Sequence record: NC_005066.1
Length of the DNA: 64,000 nucleotides
Origin: Escherichia phage RB49
Reading direction: 5' to 3' (one strand)
Below, piece after piece: positions 3,008 through 47,818 of this stretch; within the stretch, counting starts at the first letter, position 1; the number at the start of each line of letters is the position of its first letter. The position numbers and the translations under genes were made by a program. The notes below the pieces were generated by a model. The model was not told the DNA's origin. It worked only from the letters and a program-made list of their open reading frames with translations, and did no database searches.

Positions 3008-4222
3008 TTAAGCAGGATGCGTTTCACGAATGCGTAGAACTCGCTCTAACGTCTCTCGGTCCAGTTTATGTAACTCTTTAGACTGATACATGAAACCATT
3101 GCGAGATTCCATGCATGTGCAATCACTATATTTTTCTTCCGCTGCTGCGATCGTCTCCAGATCTTTGGCGTACTTGCTGGTTGAATAAACTTCTCGATCA
3201 CGCCACTCTAACCCAGCCTCATTGAATTTAACAATCTCGTCAAATACCCACCATCCAATGTAGATAAATGAAGTTTTGCGCCACGGGATCGGGTGTACGT
3301 AACGAAACATTTTAACAACTTCCATTGAACATTTTCGGCTTGTACTTGCTGCAACTTCTACTGTTTCATCTTCGATCTGTTGATATAGTTTAGCAACACA
3401 CCAGAATTTGGCTGTGTCATCGTAAGTAGCACTCTCTTTGAACAGATGACCGTCTGGAGTGATAGAAAATCCTTCCAGTGCTTCGCCGACCTCACTACCG
3501 ATCAGAGTCGGTGACAGTTGCCCTTCGCGCTGCAAATACCAGTTATATTTGATCGTCAAATTAGGCATACCGCTAGAATCGCCTACAATGTCCTCTGACA
3601 CAACATAATTAAGTGAGATCTCATTACCTAGTGCCACGGTCTTTGATTCCACCACATCCTGATCTACGTTCATTGTTGCCAGCATGATTTTAGTCGATGC
3701 GCTAGCGGCTGAATCTTCCGACTCTCCCCACACTTTTACAGTATACACGCCGTTTTTATCTGCTGTAAATTCTTGGATCGTAATATCCTGTGTTGTGTCT
3801 ATAACGTCTTCGCCCTTACTCCAACTATAATGTAGTTCATAGTTGTCTGCTGGAGTCTTCCCACCAGAAAATTTTACTGTTGCATGTAATTCTACGTCTG
3901 TTTGTGATGATACGTAGAAATGCTGCGGTTCGGTGATATTTACGATTAACTCAGCTTCTTCCATGAGGAAAACTTCAGATTCTACTGATGTCATCGTATC
4001 GGTATCTTGTACCGTGACTTTATAGCTACCCGCATTTTCACTTGTTGCGTCTGCTACAGTTAGCGTAGCTGTGTTATTTTCATGTGGTTGGTCGTCTTTT
4101 GTCCATGTATATGTCAAATTGCTGGGTAATGGTTCGTCACCCGCTACAGTCGCTGTTAAGGTGAAACCATCTCCAGCAAGAAAACATCTTTTGTTAGATT
4201 GTATTGATACTGTGAAAGCCAT
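3008..4222 (-). CDS. hoc: Hoc, highly immunogenic outer capsid protein with Ig-like domains
   Basis: 404 aa; C-terminal YVHPIPW...GWWVFDEIVK...ESRNG matches the T4 Hoc capsid-binding region as recalled; tandem Ig-like repeats at the N-terminus. Confidence 0.8.
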   Translation of the reverse strand: MAFTVSIQSNKRCFLAGDGFTLTATVAGDEPLPSNLTYTWTKDDQPHENNTATLTVADATSENAGSYKVTVQDTDTMTSVESEVFLMEEAELIVNITEPQHFYVSSQTDVELHATVKFSGGKTPADNYELHYSWSKGEDVIDTTQDITIQEFTADKNGVYTVKVWGESEDSAASASTKIMLATMNVDQDVVESKTVALGNEISLNYVVSEDIVGDSSGMPNLTIKYNWYLQREGQLSPTLIGSEVGEALEGFSITPDGHLFKESATYDDTAKFWCVAKLYQQIEDETVEVAASTSRKCSMEVVKMFRYVHPIPWRKTSFIYIGWWVFDEIVKFNEAGLEWRDREVYSTSKYAKDLETIAAAEEKYSDCTCMESRNGFMYQSKELHKLDRETLERVLRIRETHPA

Positions 4223-4391
4223 ATAAAGCCACTCCCATCGAAAATCCGAATTTAATTAATTGAAATAGTTGATTGTCATCAACCAGATAACCATTGCGAG
4301 ATTCCAATACATGAGTATTAGAATAGTGATGCAACGAGGCCGAAATAGTATCGATCTCGTCTGGGTATTTGTTCTGTTTGATGTAATACAT
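4194..4391 (-). CDS. Small ORF with a Hoc-like ESRNGY motif
   Basis: 65 aa; contains ESRNGYLVDD resembling the Hoc C-terminus; overlaps the hoc start by 29 nt; weak RBS. Confidence 0.25.
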   Translation of the reverse strand: MYYIKQNKYPDEIDTISASLHHYSNTHVLESRNGYLVDDNQLFQLIKFGFSMGVALYGFHSINTI

Positions 4392-14981: not shown

Positions 14982-15014
14982 AAAGGCGGGGATAATCCCC
15001 GCCTTTTTATTTTG
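14982..15014. terminator. Bidirectional rho-independent terminator
   Basis: Hairpin aaaggcgggga-taa-tccccgccttt flanked by A- and T-runs between convergent genes 54 and the lipoprotein gene. Confidence 0.65.
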
Positions 15015-15492
15015 CTAAATCATTGCAATATTTTAGTGCCTTAGTTTGAAATTCTGCGCTGTTAAGTTCTTCATAACGGTCATAATCACCGTTTAATGCT
15101 GCCTTTCTTGCTTCTTGCTCTATCTGCATGTCAGACATGATAATACAGCGATCCCGCGCTTTCATCTTCTCAAGTTGTATAGACTCTTCTTTCTGCTTGC
15201 GCAATTCTTCTTGACGCTTCTTTTCTTCTTGTGCTTTCTCTTCCCGCGCTTCTTTGATTGCATCCTTGAACATCTGCGTTTGTGGTGCTAAACCAACTTT
15301 AACTCGATCTACGTCTCGACGTTCCATTTTAGAAATAAAGCATGATTCGATCTGATCATCACTTGCATATGCTGCTTTACATTCACGAAGCAAGAAAACC
15401 GGATCTGATTTAGCATTCATCATAGCTTCCATGTTGGCACAACCAGTAAGCATGAATACAGCCGCAAGACCAATCAGTTTAATCATTTTCAT
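15007..15492 (-). CDS. Putative lipoprotein with a charged coiled-coil region
   Basis: 161 aa; N-terminal signal with lipobox LTGC; start overlaps the stop of the upstream ADP-ribosyltransferase gene. Confidence 0.55.
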   Translation of the reverse strand: MKMIKLIGLAAVFMLTGCANMEAMMNAKSDPVFLLRECKAAYASDDQIESCFISKMERRDVDRVKVGLAPQTQMFKDAIKEAREEKAQEEKKRQEELRKQKEESIQLEKMKARDRCIIMSDMQIEQEARKAALNGDYDRYEELNSAEFQTKALKYCNDLAK

Positions 15493-16313
15493 TTAGTCAC
15501 CTCACCGAAAATTGTAAATTGTCTACGATTCTCATCGCCGAAAGATTCTACTACGTCGTTTACCTTGACGCAAGTCCCGCGCGGTAAAATTACTTCACAT
15601 TCGCAAGGGTTCCATGCAATGGACCCAACAACAAAACCTTTATGATCTTTTACGTCAATTACCCATGATACATTACAAGAATGTTGCATCTTTCCGGTCA
15701 TTGATTCATATCGATTCTCACAATAAAGGCTAGTGCTGTTTGATAGCCATCCTCCAAAGATGATCGGTGTCATGCTGGTTGACACAAAGTTTTTAAAGGT
15801 AAATTCCTTATCTTCAATAATACGCTCTATTGTCTGAATGTCAAGATGTTGACCGCGATAAAGAGTACCGTTTAACTTTTCGGTTTTATCCATGACGCAA
15901 TCCATCAAATCAACAATCTCTGATATCTCATCGGTCATGTCTTCTTCCCCTAAGAGAGCACCATTTACCCATTCGTATTGCTCAGACACATAATCACAGA
16001 TTGCATTATATTCTGCTGGTGTTATGTTGTTATGTTTGTAATGTTTGAATACATTATCTCCAAAGTCTTCGGAGTGTACTTCATACATCACATTAATGAT
16101 TTTCTTGACAAATCCATAATCTTGTGTCTCACGCTCAAGGAAGCGGATAACCTTCACATAATCATCAAAGTTAATCTGATCGCTGATCATCTCAGTGATC
16201 ATGTAACCATTAATCCCCTCAATGTCATATGTTTCAATATAATTGTCCATACGTTCCATCATTGATTCGCGTGATTCTTCCGAAAGACGAAAATCCTGTA
16301 ATTTCTTGAACAT
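15489..16313 (-). CDS. ADP-ribosyltransferase, Alt/Mod-like R-S-E class, short paralogue
   Basis: 274 aa; LYRG...FVSTS...ECEVILPRG motifs, parallel to the C-terminus of the adjacent Alt. Confidence 0.7.
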   Translation of the reverse strand: MFKKLQDFRLSEESRESMMERMDNYIETYDIEGINGYMITEMISDQINFDDYVKVIRFLERETQDYGFVKKIINVMYEVHSEDFGDNVFKHYKHNNITPAEYNAICDYVSEQYEWVNGALLGEEDMTDEISEIVDLMDCVMDKTEKLNGTLYRGQHLDIQTIERIIEDKEFTFKNFVSTSMTPIIFGGWLSNSTSLYCENRYESMTGKMQHSCNVSWVIDVKDHKGFVVGSIAWNPCECEVILPRGTCVKVNDVVESFGDENRRQFTIFGEVTK

Positions 16314-19040: not shown

Positions 19041-19595
19041 TTAGTTATTTTTTAATTGTTCATCTTGCAATAATGCAATCACATGCTGGCGATGTTCTTC
19101 CGATTGAGACACACCGAAAAAGTTTGTTTTGTAGAAATACTCTAATCGGTCTTCTCGTGTGCTCTCTTCCATCATGATCGCGGGTAGTCCGAGATTTCGG
19201 AAACGTCGCTTTTCTGCTGGCGTAAAATCACTGTAATACAACATAGAATCATCATTACAAGCAATGCTAAACTCATCCTTCATAAAGGAGAATATTGCGT
19301 TTAAACGCTGTTTACCGTCCACGATTTCGATCTCATAGCGAGAGCCATCATCAATCTTAGCCATTGCGATAGCACCAACCGGAAAATCATTAATCAGGTT
19401 TTCGATAAACATACGTTTGTTTTCGGTGTCCCATACTAAAGGACGCTGATAATCTGGGTTCATGTTGATATAGCCATCTTCTAACCATGCTTCATAAACA
19501 GAGATAACAAAGTTTTTAGTATTGGTATAGTAACGGCGTTTAGGCGTTAAACGGTTCATGTTATAGTCTCCTGAATGGATCATCACGTAAATCAA
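19041..19595 (-). CDS. DUF262 / ParB-like nuclease-NTPase domain protein
   Basis: 184 aa; DYQRPLVWD and VDGKQRL motifs match the DUF262 signatures (IPxFQRxYxW, DGQQR) known from GmrSD-type proteins. Confidence 0.6.
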   Translation of the reverse strand: MIYVMIHSGDYNMNRLTPKRRYYTNTKNFVISVYEAWLEDGYINMNPDYQRPLVWDTENKRMFIENLINDFPVGAIAMAKIDDGSRYEIEIVDGKQRLNAIFSFMKDEFSIACNDDSMLYYSDFTPAEKRRFRNLGLPAIMMEESTREDRLEYFYKTNFFGVSQSEEHRQHVIALLQDEQLKNN

Positions 19596-19890
19596 TATCT
19601 TTTAAGAACTCATCCCATGAATGGCGGATATTGTTCTTAATTCTCCAGATAAGAGCAGGGATTGAACGCTCTCCCATCTGGAAGTATGGATCATATGATC
19701 CGTATGCCCAATATGCTACTACAATTCCACAATCAGCGCAATAGTATTCTATTTCACTTGCTGGCGACCAAAGTCCATCAATATGATCGGTGATCTTGCT
19801 TTCGATGTTATGGCTATGACAATCAGGGCAACGGATGCAATGACCTTGTTTATCGTAATTTGACGTTAGCGAATACTTAAACAATCTCAT
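19561..19890 (-). CDS. Zinc-ribbon protein
   Basis: 109 aa; CIRCPDCHSH ... YCADCG cysteine pairs; overlaps both neighbours (operon). Confidence 0.5.
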   Translation of the reverse strand: MRLFKYSLTSNYDKQGHCIRCPDCHSHNIESKITDHIDGLWSPASEIEYYCADCGIVVAYWAYGSYDPYFQMGERSIPALIWRIKNNIRHSWDEFLKDIDLRDDPFRRL

Positions 19891-20606
19891 TATAGATCCT
19901 TATTTGCTTCAAATACTGCCTTTGCGAATCCTCGCGGGGTAAGTGACCTGATAGTCTTTGTTTTCGTTCCTTTCCCGCCTAGCTTAGAATGCTGTTTACT
20001 GTACCCTTTATTAATCTGCAAAGGTTTCTTTTCTGGCATTATAAAGCCTTGTCCGGTCCATAAGCAAGTCTTTTTCGGGTACATATCACGGGCGGCAATA
20101 TACTCAGGAAAAGTAGGATGTTTATCATCTTCCGGCAAATAACCGCCATATTCCCACGGATGGAACATATAATCAGGCTTACGCCACATGCTAGAGATAA
20201 CGCTTACAGGATTCTCTATCATGTAGGGAACTCCTATCCATTCACCCAAATAAGCGGTTATTTTAGCTGCCCTTACATCATGAACTTGAATCAATGGTCC
20301 TTGTTCTAGTTTCTTTCGTTCAAAGTGCGCAGCGCCACTAACAGCTAAATTGGTGCACGGTGGGAATGCAAAGATAATATCCGGTTTCCCCCATTCAAGG
20401 TCCATTGCTCTTTCCAGCCAGTTCAAATCAATCCAGGTGTTTACATAGGTAATGTTTGGATGTTCAAATCTGGTATTATATTTTTTGTATGTACCGTGGT
20501 CGCCATCGTCAGCATTAAAGCAGATCACCTTATGACCCGCTTTAGCCCATTCTAACCCCATTATCCCCGACCCGTCAAAGTTGCAGAATATTAATTTTTG
20601 TTTCAT
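19890..20606 (-). CDS. Compact C5-cytosine methyltransferase-like protein
   Basis: 238 aa; motif I-like FDGSGIMG, motif IV-like FPPCTNLAVSGA (Pro-Cys catalytic dipeptide), motif VI-like MIENPV at canonical spacings; only about 100 aa remain where a target-recognition domain would sit. Confidence 0.45.
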   Translation of the reverse strand: MKQKLIFCNFDGSGIMGLEWAKAGHKVICFNADDGDHGTYKKYNTRFEHPNITYVNTWIDLNWLERAMDLEWGKPDIIFAFPPCTNLAVSGAAHFERKKLEQGPLIQVHDVRAAKITAYLGEWIGVPYMIENPVSVISSMWRKPDYMFHPWEYGGYLPEDDKHPTFPEYIAARDMYPKKTCLWTGQGFIMPEKKPLQINKGYSKQHSKLGGKGTKTKTIRSLTPRGFAKAVFEANKDL

Positions 20607-27659: not shown

Positions 27660-28133
27660 TTACTCCTTATTTTCTCGCTCGTACTTTTCGAAATAAAATT
27701 CTACTGGCTGGTCATGAATTGACAGCAAGCCAAAGCGTTTAGCCGCTCGCAATCCCATATTGCGCTGAATGTACTTCTGGAAGTTCTCGCGTATACACTT
27801 ACGCCAGTATTCTAAGCCCATACAGCTTTTATAAAGATTGCATTGCACACACGCCGGATTCATGTTATCAAGTATATCATGTTCCGGTTTATGCATTCCT
27901 ACAACCTTATACTTCCACGATCCATCATCATTACGGGCAATTCGTCCATTTTCATCATAGACTACCTTTGAGCGTCGCAATACTGGTTTGATGTGGTCTG
28001 CGTGCCAGCGATCCCCTAGTTCCTCGCCACAATAGGCACAACGTCCACCATATTTCATTTTCAGGATCTGGCGTTGCTCTTTCTTTGACAATTTTTTAGG
28101 TTTAGGGGCTTTCGCCCCTTCATTATCACACAT
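27660..28133 (-). CDS. HNH endonuclease (free-standing, homing-endonuclease-like)
   Basis: 157 aa; CAYCGEEL ... HADHIKP ... CVQCN HNH zinc-finger motif; start overlaps the DNA ligase stop. Confidence 0.7.
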   Translation of the reverse strand: MCDNEGAKAPKPKKLSKKEQRQILKMKYGGRCAYCGEELGDRWHADHIKPVLRRSKVVYDENGRIARNDDGSWKYKVVGMHKPEHDILDNMNPACVQCNLYKSCMGLEYWRKCIRENFQKYIQRNMGLRAAKRFGLLSIHDQPVEFYFEKYERENKE

Positions 28134-29628
28134 CGAATACCTCTTTTACTGTATTTGCAGTGGTCTTGTCGTAGCGAATACGTTTGATGATTGGGAGAAA
28201 TAAAGAGAACTCCGGTTCATCTTCTTTACGTGATTTGCTGCGGATATACCCGTTGCATGTCATCTCAATGACTTTTCCAATCAGGTTATGACGGTCAGTC
28301 CATAACATTTCTCGGTCGAGTTCATTTCGACGATCGAACGGAATTACACGTTCAGTACCATCATCACCTTTTTCGGTTGTAGTGTCGGTTAATCCCGATC
28401 CGGTGTTAGTCATCATTCGTCCGCACGCACTACGGACAGTAAAACCGCCTACCTTATTGGGGTCTTTACTATGCGGATATACATCAACAATTTCCGCGTC
28501 GAAGTCAATCACTTCTTTAAATTTAACCTGATCTTTACTACGGCGATCTTCAAATACACCATGTAAATTTTTAAGGATAATACCTTCTAAGCCCATGTTT
28601 ACATAGCGATGATATACTTCGCGAGCTTCATCTATATTGTTAACTACAGTGTTTTCGATTATCTGAACACGAGGATCGTTAAGTTCTTCAACAATCTGTT
28701 TTAGTTCTTCGAATCGATCTTTATATTGCTTCGTTGCTTTCTCATTTCCGTAATACACATCACGGTCGATAACATCCCAGACAGTATAAACAATACATTG
28801 GGCTTCTTCTTTTGGAATAGTTCCTTTAAGTGATTTGTTGAGGATACCATTTCCAGTCTGACGGTCTGCAACAACGGATTCTTTCACTGCTTCCGCTACT
28901 GGCGTTAATGGCATTTCCTCTTCTTCAAATATCCATGACAGAGTACCATCATAAACGCTCTCAACGAAGTTCTGCGCTGGTGTTTGCGAAAGGGTAGGCA
29001 TATATACCAATTCGCCATCTAGAACAATTCCACGGCCTCGTAGACGCTCTAAAACCGCAAACAAATCATCAAGCCCTTGATAGGTATTACCTGAGCGGGT
29101 ATAGATTGCTAATGTTTCCCCGTCAATATCAGCCATACCACGAGCGCCATCGCTTTTAAGTTGTGCATACGCCGGATATTTGATATTGGCAATGGTCTTA
29201 TCAGAACATGACGATGCAAGGTGGCACGGCTGCTGGGGGATCAGTTTCTTCCATACCTTGTTTGCAGTGGTAGCGGAACAACCGCATTCCAGGTCACGAT
29301 TCAGGACCATCATTGCAACTTTAGCATCATCTTCTGACAAGCAAGTCAGAGTATCGGTAACTAGCTGTAATGCTGCATTACCAGTTACTTGACGTGTTGC
29401 AAGTTTATTTTTAAAGACCTGCAATGCACCGGATAAAGACAATACAGACGAATAGCGAGACGGTTTATCGTATTTCTTTACGCCAAACGTAACCTGTTTG
29501 CAATATGCCAGATAAAAGCATTCTTTCAGCGTTTCATTGCTCGCGGATTCTTTCAGAATCTTTTCTTTCAGCGATGTTTTGTCTGTTGCTGCAAGCTGAT
29601 TAATGATATTAAGAATTGACATTTTCAC
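28126..29628 (-). CDS. 30: ATP-dependent DNA ligase
   Basis: 500 aa; adenylation motif LKSDGAR (KxDGxR) and ligase motifs; T4 gp30 is a similar size. Confidence 0.8.
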   Translation of the reverse strand: MKMSILNIINQLAATDKTSLKEKILKESASNETLKECFYLAYCKQVTFGVKKYDKPSRYSSVLSLSGALQVFKNKLATRQVTGNAALQLVTDTLTCLSEDDAKVAMMVLNRDLECGCSATTANKVWKKLIPQQPCHLASSCSDKTIANIKYPAYAQLKSDGARGMADIDGETLAIYTRSGNTYQGLDDLFAVLERLRGRGIVLDGELVYMPTLSQTPAQNFVESVYDGTLSWIFEEEEMPLTPVAEAVKESVVADRQTGNGILNKSLKGTIPKEEAQCIVYTVWDVIDRDVYYGNEKATKQYKDRFEELKQIVEELNDPRVQIIENTVVNNIDEAREVYHRYVNMGLEGIILKNLHGVFEDRRSKDQVKFKEVIDFDAEIVDVYPHSKDPNKVGGFTVRSACGRMMTNTGSGLTDTTTEKGDDGTERVIPFDRRNELDREMLWTDRHNLIGKVIEMTCNGYIRSKSRKEDEPEFSLFLPIIKRIRYDKTTANTVKEVFDV

Positions 29629-30088
29629 CTCGTTTTGTTAAACGTTCACGAATATCATTGAGGATACTACAAAATTCCGATTCAGTCAATATAGTCTTTA
29701 ACGGATCAGTTCCACCTATGCTATGACGTAATTTCTTATTTCCGGTCGCGAGTAATGCTTTACAAAATTCTGGGTTATTCCGTGCCATCGTAACAAATGC
29801 CAGATGTACCAGTCTGTAATAATGCTCACTCATTCGATGAATCGGGCGACCCTGAAAATATAACATGTGATTCTCAATCTTTTCAGTTCTTCCGGTTCTT
29901 TTTGCTTTGCCGCCGTGCATCAAAAAGATTTCTCTTTGTCTCTGAGGGTTCTTAAATCTTAGCCCCTGTAAAAATCCTTCTGTGCTGTTAATATCGCAAC
30001 CAAATAGACGGAATGGTCTTTTATTGAAATTACTCAATTCACCCGATGGATAAGGTCCACCCGCATAGATATCAATTTCAGAAGTCAT
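29609..30088 (-). CDS. NADAR (YbiA-like) domain protein
   Basis: 159 aa; pattern IYAGGPYPSGELSNF ... STEGFLQGLRF ... GKAKRTGR ... ALLATGNKKL resembles the NADAR/DUF1768 family. Confidence 0.5.
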   Translation of the reverse strand: MTSEIDIYAGGPYPSGELSNFNKRPFRLFGCDINSTEGFLQGLRFKNPQRQREIFLMHGGKAKRTGRTEKIENHMLYFQGRPIHRMSEHYYRLVHLAFVTMARNNPEFCKALLATGNKKLRHSIGGTDPLKTILTESEFCSILNDIRERLTKRGENVNS

Positions 30089-30294
30089 TGAAACTAATCT
30101 CGCTAATCAGAGAGAACGGATCATAATCGTCATTAGGAATATCGATAGTAATCGAATGAGGATTTACCCATACACCAAACTGGTCTTCTTCGGTGAATAC
30201 TTCGGTATGGATTTCGTGGATGTTTACATTCATAGTTTTCATAATAAAATTCCTTAATAATCAATAACTTACAAAATCATATAGCCAAAATATA

Positions 30295-30312
30295 GGCGGG
30301 ATTATTTCCCGC
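30295..30312 (-). terminator. Rho-independent terminator after gene 31
   Basis: Hairpin ggcggga-ttattt-cccgcc with a T-rich tail on the minus strand. Confidence 0.5.
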
Positions 30313-30324
30313 CGTTTAAAATAA

Positions 30325-30648
30325 TTAACCGTAAACTACCACAATATTCTGTTTGTGCGTTACAGTCCATTTCAGGTCGATCTCTTCTTCCTTCTTAACG
30401 CCGTTAATAACGTCTGGATGAGGAACTTTATTCATCTTGCCATGTGGCAGTAAAACAGTTTTACCCAGCAATTCTTTATCTACCGTCTCGCCAATATCAA
30501 TAATCTTACCTACCAGCGGAATCTCACCCATAGTGCGCTTTTGCTCAATAATGATCCCCATAGAGCTTTTTACTTCGGTCCCTGCGCTTTCTGCTTTAGC
30601 TTCGATAATTACATAATCACCAAGTGCTTTAGGAGTTTTAACGGTCAT
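30325..30648 (-). CDS. 31: gp31 co-chaperonin (GroES analogue for capsid folding)
   Basis: 107 aa; GDYVIIEA and NKVPHP resemble T4 gp31 as recalled; syntenic position. Confidence 0.7.
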   Translation of the reverse strand: MTVKTPKALGDYVIIEAKAESAGTEVKSSMGIIIEQKRTMGEIPLVGKIIDIGETVDKELLGKTVLLPHGKMNKVPHPDVINGVKKEEEIDLKWTVTHKQNIVVVYG

Positions 30649-30689: not shown

Positions 30690-31010
30690 TTATTTATAAA
30701 TTTCGACGATCTGCGCTGGAGTCAGCCCATCTACATTAATCAGACTATCAAGCCCAAAACTACGGAAACCTTCAACTGCAATTTCATATACTGGCAAAGA
30801 TGTTTCTGATTCTTTACGCGGTTTTTCAACATTCGGAACTAACCACTTTTCGTATGTTTCAAACGGCATCAGTGCCGGATCTCGCGTGGCGATCATCTCG
30901 CGGACAGTACCATCTTTCTTAGTAAACTGCAAAGAGTGAGTACCGACCGAGAACATTTTCTTTAGTGCTTCACGAAGTGCGATATTATCAATTTGTTCAG
31001 TCATTATCAA
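30690..31010 (-). CDS. Hypothetical protein
   Basis: 106 aa ORF. Confidence 0.45.
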   Translation of the reverse strand: MIMTEQIDNIALREALKKMFSVGTHSLQFTKKDGTVREMIATRDPALMPFETYEKWLVPNVEKPRKESETSLPVYEIAVEGFRSFGLDSLINVDGLTPAQIVEIYK

Positions 31011-31503
31011 TACCCTTCAAATCAGTCAATAATGCTTTTGGAATACGCGTAACCGTAATGTCGGCTTTATCCAAAATATCAGCCCAATCACGCCCACCGT
31101 TTCGGTCGTATGTATCGCAATAGTATAGATGTTTAATACCACTGTTTGCAATTGCTTTAGCGCAATCTGGACACGGTGAAGCAGTACACCACATACTAGC
31201 GCCTTCAATCGATACACCATTACGGGCAGCAAACAAAATAGCATTTAATTCAGCGTGGATCTCGTTTTTCTGTGACCATGCACTATGTTCTGGTCGTTTT
31301 TCTGGGATCATTTTACCGTCATCATCCAGCCAACCGCTTTTATGTGCATGACAGCTACAATTTACTTGCCCTGCTGGAGTGCCGTTAAATCCAGTAGAAA
31401 TGATTCGCCCGTCTTTTTCGATCAGTGCGCCTACCTTCCACGAAACACATTTAGAGTTCTTTGCGATCAGATAGGCGATCTGCATGTAAGTTTGTGACAA
31501 CAT
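30997..31503 (-). CDS. cd: dCMP deaminase
   Basis: 168 aa; zinc-binding HAELNAI and PCPDC motifs of the cytidine/dCMP deaminase family. Confidence 0.8.
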   Translation of the reverse strand: MLSQTYMQIAYLIAKNSKCVSWKVGALIEKDGRIISTGFNGTPAGQVNCSCHAHKSGWLDDDGKMIPEKRPEHSAWSQKNEIHAELNAILFAARNGVSIEGASMWCTASPCPDCAKAIANSGIKHLYYCDTYDRNGGRDWADILDKADITVTRIPKALLTDLKGIDND

Positions 31504-31524: not shown

Positions 31525-31728
31525 TTAACCGTATACGCGAAAGTATTCTACTGATCCGTCGCTATACTGTTTTACATTGAATGTATTCACACCATGATTA
31601 TTTCTCATGATGACATATACACTGCGACGTTCATCGCTAAACGGCATAACTGGCGCTGGTTCAATATCAACACTAAAACCACGTTTAGCAAGTGCTTCGC
31701 CTAATTGCTTGAGTTTATCGGTAAACAT
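31525..31728 (-). CDS. Hypothetical small protein
   Basis: 67 aa ORF. Confidence 0.4.
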   Translation of the reverse strand: MFTDKLKQLGEALAKRGFSVDIEPAPVMPFSDERRSVYVIMRNNHGVNTFNVKQYSDGSVEYFRVYG

Positions 31729-32627
31729 TAAAATTCTCCGTAGTTAACCTGAAAACATTCTACACCAATTGAGCGGTACATGTCAACCACTTGATCACGG
31801 TCATCTACCGCCAAAACAACATGATAACGCGGTGCAATTTCAGAGAAGAAGATCTCTTTCTTCACTTCATGATCAGGACGACGATCATTAGTTTCACGTT
31901 GAAAGTGATCACTAGGTTCAATACCCTGTTCACGCAACCATTGCAGAGTATCTTCTTCGCAAACATCCTCACGCCCTGAGCATGTGATGATACGATAGCC
32001 ATTATCACGATACAGTTTAAGCATTTCGACCACTTGCGGACGAGGTTTATCTTCTTTGACCTTTGTCCAGTCAAACGGATGACGACCGCCCTTATCCGCT
32101 AATGTTCCATCAATATCAAAGATCACTGCCTTTGGCAGCATAGTATTCGGTTTGTATACTTCTTGACCCATATATTCCTGCATCAGATAAAATTGGTTAC
32201 GCAAATGAGAAAGTGGAATTGCTTTCTCGCCGCGATAGAAATTACGTTTCTTTAGTGTCTCAAACGGTTCATTGAACACTTGTTCAGTATACACCGCGTT
32301 AAATTCTTTTGCAAGTTCTTTGTAGAATACACGATGTTTTTCTTTCAGATTAGTATCAGAGATAATGATACTTAATCCGCGTGATAGAGTCTCACGAGCA
32401 ATCATTCTCTGAATAGACTCTACCAGCTTTTCTTTTTCCTTAGTATACTTGTATTTCAAATGTGAGTCAACACCAAACAACATAAGACGAAGATCATCGC
32501 GATTCACATTACGATAATTACTAAACCGTTTACATGTTTCCATCGCCCATGTAGTTTTACCGGACCCAGAACAACCAACGGTTAAAATCACTTCACATTT
32601 CGGCATTATTTCTCCTTCGGTTTGCAC
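31728..32627 (-). CDS. pseT: Polynucleotide kinase / 3'-phosphatase
   Basis: 299 aa; P-loop GCSGSGKT and HAD-type phosphatase motif VIFDIDGTLAD, as in T4 Pnk. Confidence 0.85.
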   Translation of the reverse strand: MQTEGEIMPKCEVILTVGCSGSGKTTWAMETCKRFSNYRNVNRDDLRLMLFGVDSHLKYKYTKEKEKLVESIQRMIARETLSRGLSIIISDTNLKEKHRVFYKELAKEFNAVYTEQVFNEPFETLKKRNFYRGEKAIPLSHLRNQFYLMQEYMGQEVYKPNTMLPKAVIFDIDGTLADKGGRHPFDWTKVKEDKPRPQVVEMLKLYRDNGYRIITCSGREDVCEEDTLQWLREQGIEPSDHFQRETNDRRPDHEVKKEIFFSEIAPRYHVVLAVDDRDQVVDMYRSIGVECFQVNYGEF

Positions 32628-40869: not shown

Positions 40870-42102
40870 TTATACTGCCATTTGAGCGGTGATTGCTGGA
40901 TGGCTTTGATAGTTGTGAATTTTAAAATCTTTCGGAGTCTTTGTCAATACCTCATCTAAAGATTTAAATTCCGGCAACTCAATTGTTGGTTTATCAAACG
41001 GAACACGGCTTAACTGTTCCATAACTTGATCAAAATGGTTTTTGTAAATGTGAGTATCTCCACCAGAGAAAATCAGTTCTCCTACCTCAAGATCACACAT
41101 TTTCGCTATGATGTGAGTTAACAGCGCATAGCTGGCGACGTTAAAGGGCAAGCCCAAAAAGCTGTCTACGCTTCGCTGAAACCACATACAAGACAGTTTA
41201 CCTTCATTGACGTAGAATTGTACGAACGGATGACATACACCCAACACAGCATTATGTGTTCCTTGTACGTTCCATGAGTCAATAATGATCCGGCGATCCG
41301 TTGGATTGTTTTTAATTTGTTCAATCACGTTTTGTAACTGGTCTTCCCAAATCTTCGGGCGATAGACATATTCTTCATCGTCTTTAGTGCTCGATGTGTC
41401 TACGTCCATACTAGCAAAGATCGTGGTATCTGGTGCTAAAATATCCCCACCCAGATAATCACTATCAAGCAGATAACCGAAATAACCATCATCTACCCAT
41501 TCCTGGAATCCCCACAAGCAATATGCATCATTAACAAAATTAGATTGAGTCTTCCAGTGGTCTGCTACTAAGAATAGATTATACTCAGAATCAAACTCTT
41601 CATAACGCATACCACGCCAGATAGCACATAAACGGTCTTCTGTTTCATTGGTTGGCGTAAAGTCTTCTACCCACGGGTGTTTAAATGTATGTGTATATTT
41701 GCTCTTAACGCGCTTAATTTTGATTTCACCGTGTGGATGAATCGGTTTGCGTCGCCATGCCATACCATACATATTACCGACATTATAACCATTGAATCGC
41801 AAAGGATTCTTTTCTTTCATATCAAGACAGTTGCCGCGCCAAATATCAAAGGCTTCCTCGTCAAACTTACCGCGTGTAATTTCCTGTAAGCGACGGCGGT
41901 CAAGTGATCCCTCCATAAACCATAGCAACTCGCCAATTACAGAGGCTGTAGCCATCTTTTTAGTGGTCAGTAAGGGGAAACCCTTGCTTAAATCAATTCG
42001 CATCTCTGCGCCGAATTTAGAGAGCGTACCTACCCCCGTGCGGTCTTCACGAGGCCAACCATTATCAAGAACATCACGCAATAGTTTCAAATATTCTTTC
42101 AT
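40870..42102 (-). CDS. td: Thymidylate synthase with a ~130 aa internal insertion
   Basis: 410 aa; ThyA motifs DRTGVGT, YGMAWRR, DRRIIIDSWN, CHPFVQFYV, LGLPFNVASYALL; extra segment between the YGxxWR motif and the DxRRII motif. Confidence 0.8.
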   Translation of the reverse strand: MKEYLKLLRDVLDNGWPREDRTGVGTLSKFGAEMRIDLSKGFPLLTTKKMATASVIGELLWFMEGSLDRRRLQEITRGKFDEEAFDIWRGNCLDMKEKNPLRFNGYNVGNMYGMAWRRKPIHPHGEIKIKRVKSKYTHTFKHPWVEDFTPTNETEDRLCAIWRGMRYEEFDSEYNLFLVADHWKTQSNFVNDAYCLWGFQEWVDDGYFGYLLDSDYLGGDILAPDTTIFASMDVDTSSTKDDEEYVYRPKIWEDQLQNVIEQIKNNPTDRRIIIDSWNVQGTHNAVLGVCHPFVQFYVNEGKLSCMWFQRSVDSFLGLPFNVASYALLTHIIAKMCDLEVGELIFSGGDTHIYKNHFDQVMEQLSRVPFDKPTIELPEFKSLDEVLTKTPKDFKIHNYQSHPAITAQMAV

Positions 42103-47221: not shown

Positions 47222-47818
47222 TTAACCCTCTTTAGTCATTAATTGAAAACCACGTTCAGCTTTTGAGATTTCGCTAGGACTTAAATCGTCACCCACATAT
47301 TCTAGCATCATTTCTCGGATAATGTCAAGTGCTTTTTCATCACCTGATTTTAACTCGAACTCAAGTTCATAGTGAGCATCTCCCATTACTTCGCCGACTT
47401 TGCAATAATAGAAAGTGTCTTTGCACATTTCCACTATAGCACCCTCAAGGTCAATTGTCAATGACTTGCGGTATGTCATTACTTGAAGTAAAGGAACGAT
47501 AAGGTCGGAGTTTACGCCTAGACTATCAACATAATGATAGAAATCATCCATTGTTGAAAAAGTAATTTCTTCTCGGTTGAAGAGTCCAGATTCACTATCA
47601 CCTATTTTGACCATGATCAATGATCTATTAACGTCAAGTCGAGCATAAATTCCTTTTCGACGCAGTGCATGATCTTCGGTATCATAATAAAATTCGTGTT
47701 TTAGAGTGTTAGCACGATCTACTAGATTGTACCCGTCATACATTGCTACCCACAAATCACAGATTGTTTCGACGCCAATTTGTGAGTGTGCATAGTATTT
47801 TAATTCAAGTTCTTTCAT
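47222..47818 (-). CDS. CYTH-domain (triphosphate tunnel metalloenzyme) protein
   Basis: 198 aa; N-terminal ELELKY (ExExK), EFYYDTEDHALRRKG, TYRK and C-terminal ELEFELK match CYTH signature positions. Confidence 0.6.
   Translation of the reverse strand: MKELELKYYAHSQIGVETICDLWVAMYDGYNLVDRANTLKHEFYYDTEDHALRRKGIYARLDVNRSLIMVKIGDSESGLFNREEITFSTMDDFYHYVDSLGVNSDLIVPLLQVMTYRKSLTIDLEGAIVEMCKDTFYYCKVGEVMGDAHYELEFELKSGDEKALDIIREMMLEYVGDDLSPSEISKAERGFQLMTKEG

What the first reader, a model, noticed from the sequence alone, without database searches (positions are those of the whole stretch)
29609..30088. NADAR-domain protein next to DNA ligase: candidate ADP-ribosylation reversal or anti-defence factor
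The 159 aa product matches the NADAR/YbiA-like pattern. NADAR enzymes have, to my recollection, been reported to hydrolyse ADP-ribose from guanine bases modified by DarT-type toxins, which would make a phage copy a plausible counter-defence. The same genome also encodes two ADP-ribosyltransferases (15489..16313 and alt).
Basis: partly seen in the sequence, partly recalled or inferred. Interest (0 to 1): 0.65.

Follow-up and report, generated by a model that had tools for sequence, protein, structure and literature searches.

The report
Krischvirus copy of T4 AdfN (gp30.3)
This gene is the RB49-type phage version of T4 gene 30.3 (AdfN), an enzyme already shown in T4 to strip ADP-ribose off phage DNA and so defeat the bacterial DarTG1 defence, which makes it a real but already explained feature.

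Summary
The ORF is real: 29609..30088 on the minus strand, 159 aa. It is 100% identical to RB49 gp30.3, and the window is a Krischvirus (RB49/JSE-like, about 98% nt identity). It scores strongly for Pfam Phage_30_3 (E=1.2e-38). It falls below threshold for Pfam NADAR (15.5 bits against a cutoff of 35.1).

The protein is 38% identical to T4 gp30.3, now called AdfN. Published genetics and biochemistry show that AdfN is a guanine-specific DNA ADP-ribosylglycohydrolase, and that it is necessary and sufficient to overcome DarTG1. The catalytic Glu (E37), the phage-type His (H122) and the C-terminal helix are all present. The phosphate-binding Lys is Arg here (R44). That variant is fixed in Krischvirus and shared with an Acinetobacter-phage subclade.

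The position next to DNA ligase reflects T4-type gene order, not a functional link. The two ADP-ribosyltransferases are real but give no evidence on this gene's function.

No one has tested the Krischvirus protein itself.

The parts
29609..30088 (-). Gene 30.3 / adfN orthologue, 159 aa: a single-domain phage-type NADAR, predicted guanine-ADP-ribose DNA glycohydrolase. Key residues are E37 (distal-ribose-binding Glu), R44 (phosphate-binding position, Lys in T4), H122 (phage-type His in the last strand) and the C-terminal helix 136-158.
30078..30242 (-). Small upstream ORF (gp31.-1 in RB49, 54 aa, PHROG 15277, function unknown). Its stop overlaps the 30.3 ATG by 11 nt, so the two are probably co-transcribed and translationally coupled.
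   Evidence: No similarity to T4 gp30.4, which holds the equivalent position.
28126..29622 (-). Gene 30, ATP-dependent DNA ligase (498 aa from the ATG at 29622). Its GAGG ribosome-binding site (29631..29628) and start codon lie inside the 3' end of 30.3.
   Evidence: PF01068 E=2.8e-22; JSE annotation; sequence.
30295..30313 (-). Terminator-like GC-rich hairpin followed by a T run, just downstream of gene 31. It is a possible 5' boundary of the 31.-1/30.3/30 transcription unit. This is a pattern match only.
   Evidence: The number of such sites in the region is no higher than in shuffled sequence.

Best explanation
The gene is the Krischvirus orthologue of T4 30.3/adfN, a stand-alone phage-type NADAR glycohydrolase made early in infection.

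Proposed mechanism. When a host carries a DarTG1-type toxin-antitoxin defence, infection unleashes DarT1, which ADP-ribosylates guanine in phage DNA and blocks replication. This enzyme binds the ADP-ribose adduct. E37 contacts the distal ribose, R44 contacts the diphosphate, and H122 supplies the third active-site residue from the last beta-strand. It hydrolyses the N-glycosidic bond to guanine, releasing ADP-ribose and restoring an intact base, so replication proceeds.

Shown here: the ORF, its family, the NADAR fold, retention of the active-site positions and the C-terminal helix, purifying selection, and orthology to T4 AdfN.

Inferred from the T4 orthologue and other NADARs: the enzymatic activity, guanine specificity and anti-DarTG1 role of this particular protein.
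For: - Family and orthology: PF08010 Phage_30_3 E=1.2e-38. 38% identity to T4 gp30.3 from residue 3 to 150, E=2e-30.
- Link to NADAR: the family profile hits E. coli YbiA 2b3w (E=5.6e-4) and P. nicotianae NADAR 8bau, aligning the S-x-E...Q-x-x-K motif. 22 of 86 family members match Pfam NADAR, best E=1.1e-6.
- Conserved residues: E37 is E in 158 of 162 aligned domains and H122 is H in 160 of 162. Other near-invariant residues (S19, N20, F26, Q41, Q51, A62, R85, T132, T135, E138, R147) are all present.
- The C-terminal helix, whose truncation inactivates the RB69 allele (PMC11257639), is intact.
- Selection: purifying within Krischvirus, and R44 is fixed in all seven copies compared.
- Published function of the orthologue: PMC11825919 (genetics, E36A/K43A, in vitro dot blot, guanine but not thymine specificity), PMC11125620 and PMC12945103 (T4 protein removes G-ADPr but not T-ADPr or C-ADPr in vitro), 10.1101/2025.11.20.689424 (adfN conditionally essential on DarTG1).
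- DNA modification is not required: T4-GT7 with unmodified DNA still depends on AdfN (PMC11825919 section 10). The lack of hydroxymethylcytosine genes in Krischvirus (PMC13390438, PMC12115623) is therefore no obstacle.
Against: - No experiment exists on any Krischvirus protein or phage with DarTG1. Literature searches for Krischvirus or RB49 together with DarT found nothing relevant.
- The position equivalent to T4 K43 is Arg (R44). T4 K43A is inactive. In E. coli C7 DarG1-NADAR the K95R mutant still hydrolysed G-ADPr in vitro but no longer rescued cells from DarT1 (PMC11543638).
- The single-sequence Pfam NADAR score is below threshold, and no PADLOC DarG-type model matches.
- AdfN-T4 works fully only during T-even infection, for unknown reasons (PMC11825919), so a required partner might differ or be missing here. 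For example, the 30.2 gene next to it in T4 is absent at this locus.
Confidence: 0.8

Rival explanations
1. It is a NADAR hydrolase, but its main substrate in Krischvirus infection is not DarT1-modified DNA. Candidates are ADP-ribosylated guanine in RNA, or soluble ADP-ribose derivatives used as immune signals or made during RNA repair.
For: All NADAR families tested also remove G-ADPr from RNA (cited in PMC12945103). [quoted passage not shown] RNA-repair genes lie nearby: pseT at 31728..32627 and rnlA further on. The K-to-R change at the phosphate-binding site could shift specificity.
Against: The T4 orthologue's phenotype is specific and strong for DarTG1, and its activity on DNA has been shown directly (PMC11825919). 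The pseT/rnlA neighbourhood is ordinary T4 gene order. No soluble substrate has been shown for any gp30.3-type protein.
Confidence: 0.1
2. It is a weakened or in vivo ineffective AdfN. Arg at the essential Lys position keeps the fold and perhaps residual activity, but the protein no longer protects against DarT1, and the gene persists for another role or by inertia.
For: In E. coli C7 NADAR, K95R was active in vitro but gave no in vivo rescue (PMC11543638). T4 K43A is inactive (PMC11825919). R occurs in only 11 of 162 aligned domains.
Against: Arg is kept across a deep subclade that includes Krischvirus, Acinetobacter Lazarusvirus at 48% identity and several metagenomic relatives. The gene is under purifying selection in Krischvirus, and every other conserved residue is intact. 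This pattern fits a working variant rather than decay. The K95R result comes from a different NADAR subfamily used as an antitoxin in uninfected cells, a setting where even wild-type T4 AdfN fails.
Confidence: 0.07
3. It reverses or tunes modifications made by the phage's own ADP-ribosyltransferases (Alt and the adjacent 274-aa ART). This is the link hinted at by the first reader.
For: Two ART genes lie in the same window. In several T4-like phages NADAR genes are early genes expressed along with the ARTs (PMC9503650). In Acinetobacter phage AB-Navy97 the block 30.3, 30.2-like gene, ligase and a small ORF is followed by an ART gene.
Against: From general knowledge of T4 biology, Alt, ModA and ModB modify protein arginine (ModB can also attach RNA), not guanine. 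NADARs are N-glycosidases of base-linked ADP-ribose, and the T4 enzyme does not remove even T- or C-linked ADPr (PMC11125620, PMC12945103). The ART genes here are about 12 kb away. T4 delta-adfN has no reported defect without DarTG1 (PMC11825919; 10.1101/2025.11.20.689424).
Confidence: 0.03

Closest known systems
T4 gp30.3 = AdfN (anti-DarT factor NADAR), Pfam PF08010 Phage_30_3
   Same: Same Pfam family and PHROG. 38% identity over the full length. Single-domain core NADAR with no N-terminal extension. Catalytic Glu, phage-type His and the C-terminal helix are conserved. Same genomic block, between gene 31 and ligase gene 30, on the same strand.
   Different: Arg replaces the Lys (T4 K43) whose Ala mutant is inactive. 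The C-terminus is 7 aa longer. It abuts ligase directly, because the T4 genes 30.1 and 30.2 are absent here. The upstream small ORF is unrelated to T4 30.4. The host phage genus lacks the hydroxymethylcytosine pathway (PMC13390438). It is untested experimentally.
DarG1 (DarT1-associated NADAR antitoxin; E. coli C7, Geobacter lovleyi 8bat)
   Different: 11% identity. DarG1 has an N-terminal extension, and an Asp rather than His in the last strand. It is encoded in an operon with DarT1 in bacteria and works as an antitoxin in uninfected cells (PMC11543638). No PADLOC or NCBIfam DarG-type model matches this protein.
E. coli YbiA (2b3w) and Phytophthora NADAR (8bau), Pfam PF08719 NADAR
   Different: These have Glu, not His, in the last strand. 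YbiA also acts on riboflavin-pathway intermediates (PMC11543638). The window protein scores only 15.5 bits against PF08719.
AdfN-Bas32 and AdfN-Bas60 (NADARs of T5-like and Vequintavirinae phages)
   Same: Phage-borne NADARs that counter DarTG1 (PMC11825919).
   Different: They belong to other NADAR clades acquired independently, and they neutralise DarT1 without any phage context. The window protein belongs to the T4-type gp30.3 clade.

Membership tests
Phage gp30.3 / AdfN family (Pfam PF08010) | Significant match to the PF08010 profile over its full length | tested here: met
   E=1.2e-38, 132.5 bits against a gathering score of 36; profile positions 2-138 of 138. PHROG 652 E=2.5e-45.
Phage gp30.3 / AdfN family (Pfam PF08010) | Histidine in the last beta-strand, where YbiA-type NADARs have Glu and DarG1 has Asp (the phage-NADAR hallmark; PMC11543638, PMC11125620) | tested here: met
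   H122 aligns with T4 H123 in the motif L-x-H-S-I-G. His is found in 160 of 162 aligned domains. It lies in predicted strand 119-121/122.
Phage gp30.3 / AdfN family (Pfam PF08010) | Catalytic Glu (T4 E36) and Lys (T4 K43), both required for function in T4 | tested here: inconclusive
   The Glu is present (E37). The Lys position is Arg (R44). This is a conservative change found in 11 of 162 aligned domains and fixed in a subclade. K-to-R in another NADAR kept in vitro activity but lost in vivo rescue (PMC11543638).
Phage gp30.3 / AdfN family (Pfam PF08010) | Intact C-terminal helix (its loss inactivates the RB69 allele) | tested here: met
   Helix 136-158 is predicted with high confidence. The ORF runs 7 aa beyond the T4 C-terminus.
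Phage gp30.3 / AdfN family (Pfam PF08010) | Removes ADP-ribose from guanine in DNA and confers resistance to DarTG1 | not testable with these tools
   Shown only for the T4 and T2 proteins (PMC11825919, PMC11125620). No data for Krischvirus.
NADAR superfamily (Pfam PF08719; YbiA fold) | Sequence-profile match to NADAR | tested here: inconclusive
   Single sequence: E=0.021, 15.5 bits, below the 35.1 cutoff. Family level: 22 of 86 relatives match at E<=0.01, best 1.1e-6. The family profile hits YbiA at E=5.6e-4.
NADAR superfamily (Pfam PF08719; YbiA fold) | NADAR alpha+beta fold | tested here: met
DarG1 antitoxin (DarTG1 system) | Encoded next to a DarT1 toxin; N-terminal extension; Asp in the last strand | tested here: not met
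   No DarT-like gene is adjacent; the neighbours are ligase, 31.-1 and gene 31. The protein is core domain only, with His not Asp. No PADLOC hit. It works like DarG1 but is not a DarG1.

The most novel reading that the evidence does not exclude
The Arg-for-Lys variant at the diphosphate-binding position marks a distinct subclade of AdfN, found in Krischvirus, Acinetobacter Lazarusvirus and some metagenomic relatives. Its properties may differ from T4 AdfN. It might have a different adduct or nucleic-acid preference, or it might not depend on the unknown T-even-specific factor that T4 AdfN appears to need. Because 30.2 is missing at this locus, comparing the two could also narrow the search for that factor.
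Probability: 0.15. Interest if true: 0.4.

Novelty: already known. Interest (0 to 1): 0.15.

Why it matters
It confirms that RB49-type coliphages, which are used in phage-therapy collections, carry the known anti-DarTG1 enzyme. That helps predict their host range on DarTG1-bearing E. coli. The only new detail is a natural Lys-to-Arg change at a residue that mutagenesis marks as essential. That change could inform structure-function work on NADAR hydrolases, but it does not alter the overall picture.

Tried and rejected
- PDB sequence search with the single protein gave only a spurious DltA hit (E=3.8e-4). NCBIfam echoed it weakly. I rejected it as chance because the fold search and the family profile both point to NADAR.
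- PADLOC gave no hit.
- I looked for a conserved small partner upstream. Krischvirus 31.-1 and T4 30.4 are unrelated, and the upstream genes in Acinetobacter, Vibrio and Rhizobium phages fall in different PHROGs. No conserved partner was found.
- I tested whether adjacency to ligase is conserved. It holds loosely in T4 and in an Acinetobacter phage, but not in Vibrio, Rhizobium or Aeromonas phages. I rejected it as functional evidence.
- I considered that AdfN might need hydroxymethylcytosine DNA, as the 2024 preprint suggested, which would have made a Krischvirus copy puzzling. The published version withdrew this after testing T4-GT7.
- The promoter scan found nothing above the shuffled background upstream of the gene.
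- Literature searches for Krischvirus or RB49 with DarT found no experimental test.
- I could not inspect active-site geometry, because model coordinates are not exposed to the scripting tool.

Full report
**Observation.** The window holds a 159-aa ORF at 29609..30088 on the minus strand. Its ATG (30088..30086) lies 11 nt inside the end of a 54-aa upstream ORF (30078..30242). Its TAA (29611..29609) lies 14 nt past the ATG (29622) of the DNA ligase gene, and the ligase GAGG ribosome-binding site sits within the 30.3 coding sequence. The three genes are therefore tightly packed on one strand.

The region is about 98% identical at the nucleotide level to 58 Krischvirus genomes, including RB49, JSE, TB34 and FL15. 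The protein is 100% identical to the gp30.3 annotated in an RB49 GenBank fragment.

**Is it a gene?**
- Pfam PF08010 (Phage_30_3) matches end to end at E=1.2e-38, and PHROG 652 at E=2.5e-45.
- An exhaustive HMMER scan finds 973 clusters of relatives at 50% identity with E<=0.001.
- tblastn finds homologues in 1508 phage records, nearly all full length.
- In seven Krischvirus copies, synonymous differences (3-5% of sites) far exceed non-synonymous ones (0-0.9%).

**Is it a NADAR?** For the single sequence, the Pfam NADAR model gives only 15.5 bits (E=0.021) against a gathering score of 35.1. Three further tests settle the matter in favour of NADAR.
1. 22 of 86 family members match PF08719 at E<=0.01, with a best value of 1.1e-6.
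2. A profile of the family hits E. coli YbiA (2b3w, E=5.6e-4) and the Phytophthora NADAR (8bau), aligning the SNF and S-x-E...Q-x-x-K motifs.

**What is known about the family.** T4 gene 30.3 lies in the same genomic block, and its product is 38% identical to the window protein over the full length (E=2e-30).
- Schuller et al. 2023 (PMC11543638) defined NADARs as guanine-ADP-ribose hydrolases and noted a phage subfamily with His in the last strand.
- Toxins 2024 (PMC11125620) showed in vitro activity of T4 gp30.3 on G-ADPr but not on T-ADPr.
- Johannesman et al. (preprint PMC11257639; Nat Commun 2025, PMC11825919) named it AdfN. They showed that it is necessary in T4 and T2, and sufficient for RB69, to overcome DarTG1. 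E36A and K43A abolish this, and the truncated RB69 allele is inactive.
- A 2025 transposon screen found T4 adfN conditionally essential on DarTG1 (10.1101/2025.11.20.689424).
- A 2026 study found that the T4 enzyme does not remove cytidine-ADPr (PMC12945103).

**Residue-level comparison.** The positions below come from an alignment of 162 domains taken from the representative search plus T4.

| Window residue | T4 equivalent | Frequency in the alignment |
|---|---|---|
| E37 | E36 | E in 158/162 |
| H122 | H123 | H in 160/162 |
| R44 | K43 | K in 147/162, R in 11/162 |

The other near-invariant residues (S19, N20, F26, Q41, Q51, A62, R85, T132, T135, E138, R147) are all present. The C-terminal helix missing in RB69 is intact, at 136-158.

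R44 is the one departure. It corresponds to PnNADAR K50 and E. coli C7 K95, the diphosphate-binding lysine (PMC11543638). The Arg is fixed in all seven Krischvirus copies. It is shared with the nearest phage relative, Acinetobacter phage AB-Navy97 (48% identity, motif STEGFLQGLR), and with several metagenomic relatives that are each other's nearest neighbours. It therefore marks a long-lived subclade rather than a recent lesion.

Schuller et al. report that K95R in the E. coli C7 enzyme keeps in vitro hydrolysis but loses in vivo rescue. I therefore score this feature as inconclusive rather than met, and I keep a small-probability rival in which protection is weakened.

**Context.** The neighbours are ordinary T4-type early and middle genes: an HNH endonuclease (27660..28133), ligase, 31.-1, gene 31 co-chaperonin (30325..30648), 31.1 (WYL_2/SH3 fold), the cd dCMP deaminase (30997..31503) and the pseT polynucleotide kinase (31728..32627).

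Adjacency to ligase is a matter of gene order. T4 has 30.1 and 30.2 in between, and the Acinetobacter phage has a 30.2 homologue in between. In the Vibrio, Rhizobium and Aeromonas phages the homologue sits next to unrelated genes. NADAR hydrolysis restores an intact base, so no ligation step is expected.

They lie about 12 kb away and belong to the exoenzyme-type protein ARTs. They provide no evidence for the NADAR's role.

**DNA modification.** Krischvirus genomes lack hydroxymethylase and glucosyltransferase genes. TB34, whose gp30.3 is identical to the window protein, has canonical cytosines (PMC13390438; PMC12115623). The 2024 preprint proposed that AdfN-T4 prefers hydroxymethylated DNA, which would have made this copy interesting. 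The published paper withdrew that idea: T4-GT7, with unmodified DNA, still relies on AdfN, and an unknown T-even factor is now proposed instead. The Krischvirus copy is thus fully compatible with the known mechanism.

**Conclusion.** The finding is correct, and it is explained by published work. The gene is the Krischvirus orthologue of adfN. It most likely removes DarT1-installed ADP-ribose from guanine in phage DNA (confidence about 0.8). The residual uncertainty is that no Krischvirus protein or phage has been tested against DarTG1 and that the essential Lys is naturally Arg.

Novelty is low: the family, fold, chemistry and biological role are all already described, and the RB49 gene has long been annotated as 30.3.

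Noticed in passing
window 40870..42102 (-): The thymidylate synthase is 410 aa, and Pfam PF00303 matches it in two stretches (the second covers aa 254-410, aligned to profile positions 110-266). This implies an insertion of roughly 140 aa inside the ThyA fold. Krischvirus cytosine-modification chemistry is reported as unexplained (PMC13390438), so an unusual ThyA-family enzyme may deserve a look.
   Followed up: no
window 19041..19595 (-) and 19890..20606 (-): A 184-aa protein with a GmrSD_N (DUF262-type) domain (E=5.8e-20) lies close to a 238-aa ORF that is annotated 'DNA methyltransferase' in phage JSE but has no Pfam hit here.
   Followed up: no
window 47222..47818 (-): A 198-aa CYTH-domain protein (E=2.9e-6) lies between the dsbA-like gene and rnh.
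   Followed up: no
window 29609..29628, compared with L002 (T4) 3206..4311 and L004 (AB-Navy97) 3476..4138: T4 gp30.2 (PHROG 420, with weak P-loop kinase similarity) lies between 30.3 and ligase in T4 and in an Acinetobacter phage, but is absent at this position in Krischvirus. AdfN-T4 is reported to need an unknown T-even factor, so the presence or absence of 30.2 may be worth correlating with that dependence.
   Followed up: partly
proteins P0019, P0021, P0024, P0039, P0076, P0058, P0061 (metagenomic relatives): gp30.3-type NADAR domains also occur in fusions. There is a recurrent unknown N-terminal region of about 320 aa, and tandem NADAR-NADAR proteins in which some aligned copies lack the catalytic Glu. 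Single cases carry a calcineurin-like phosphoesterase or BspA-type leucine-rich repeats.
   Followed up: partly
window 27660..28133 (-): An HNH endonuclease gene (157 aa) sits immediately downstream of ligase and overlaps its end by 8 nt. It is probably a mobile or homing-type insertion, and T4 has nothing at the equivalent position (alt.1 follows ligase there).
   Followed up: no
window 15489..16313 (-): A second, 274-aa exoenzyme-type ADP-ribosyltransferase lies directly downstream of alt. It is followed by a 161-aa ORF with a lipoprotein-like N-terminus (15007..15492) that overlaps it by 4 nt.
   Followed up: partly
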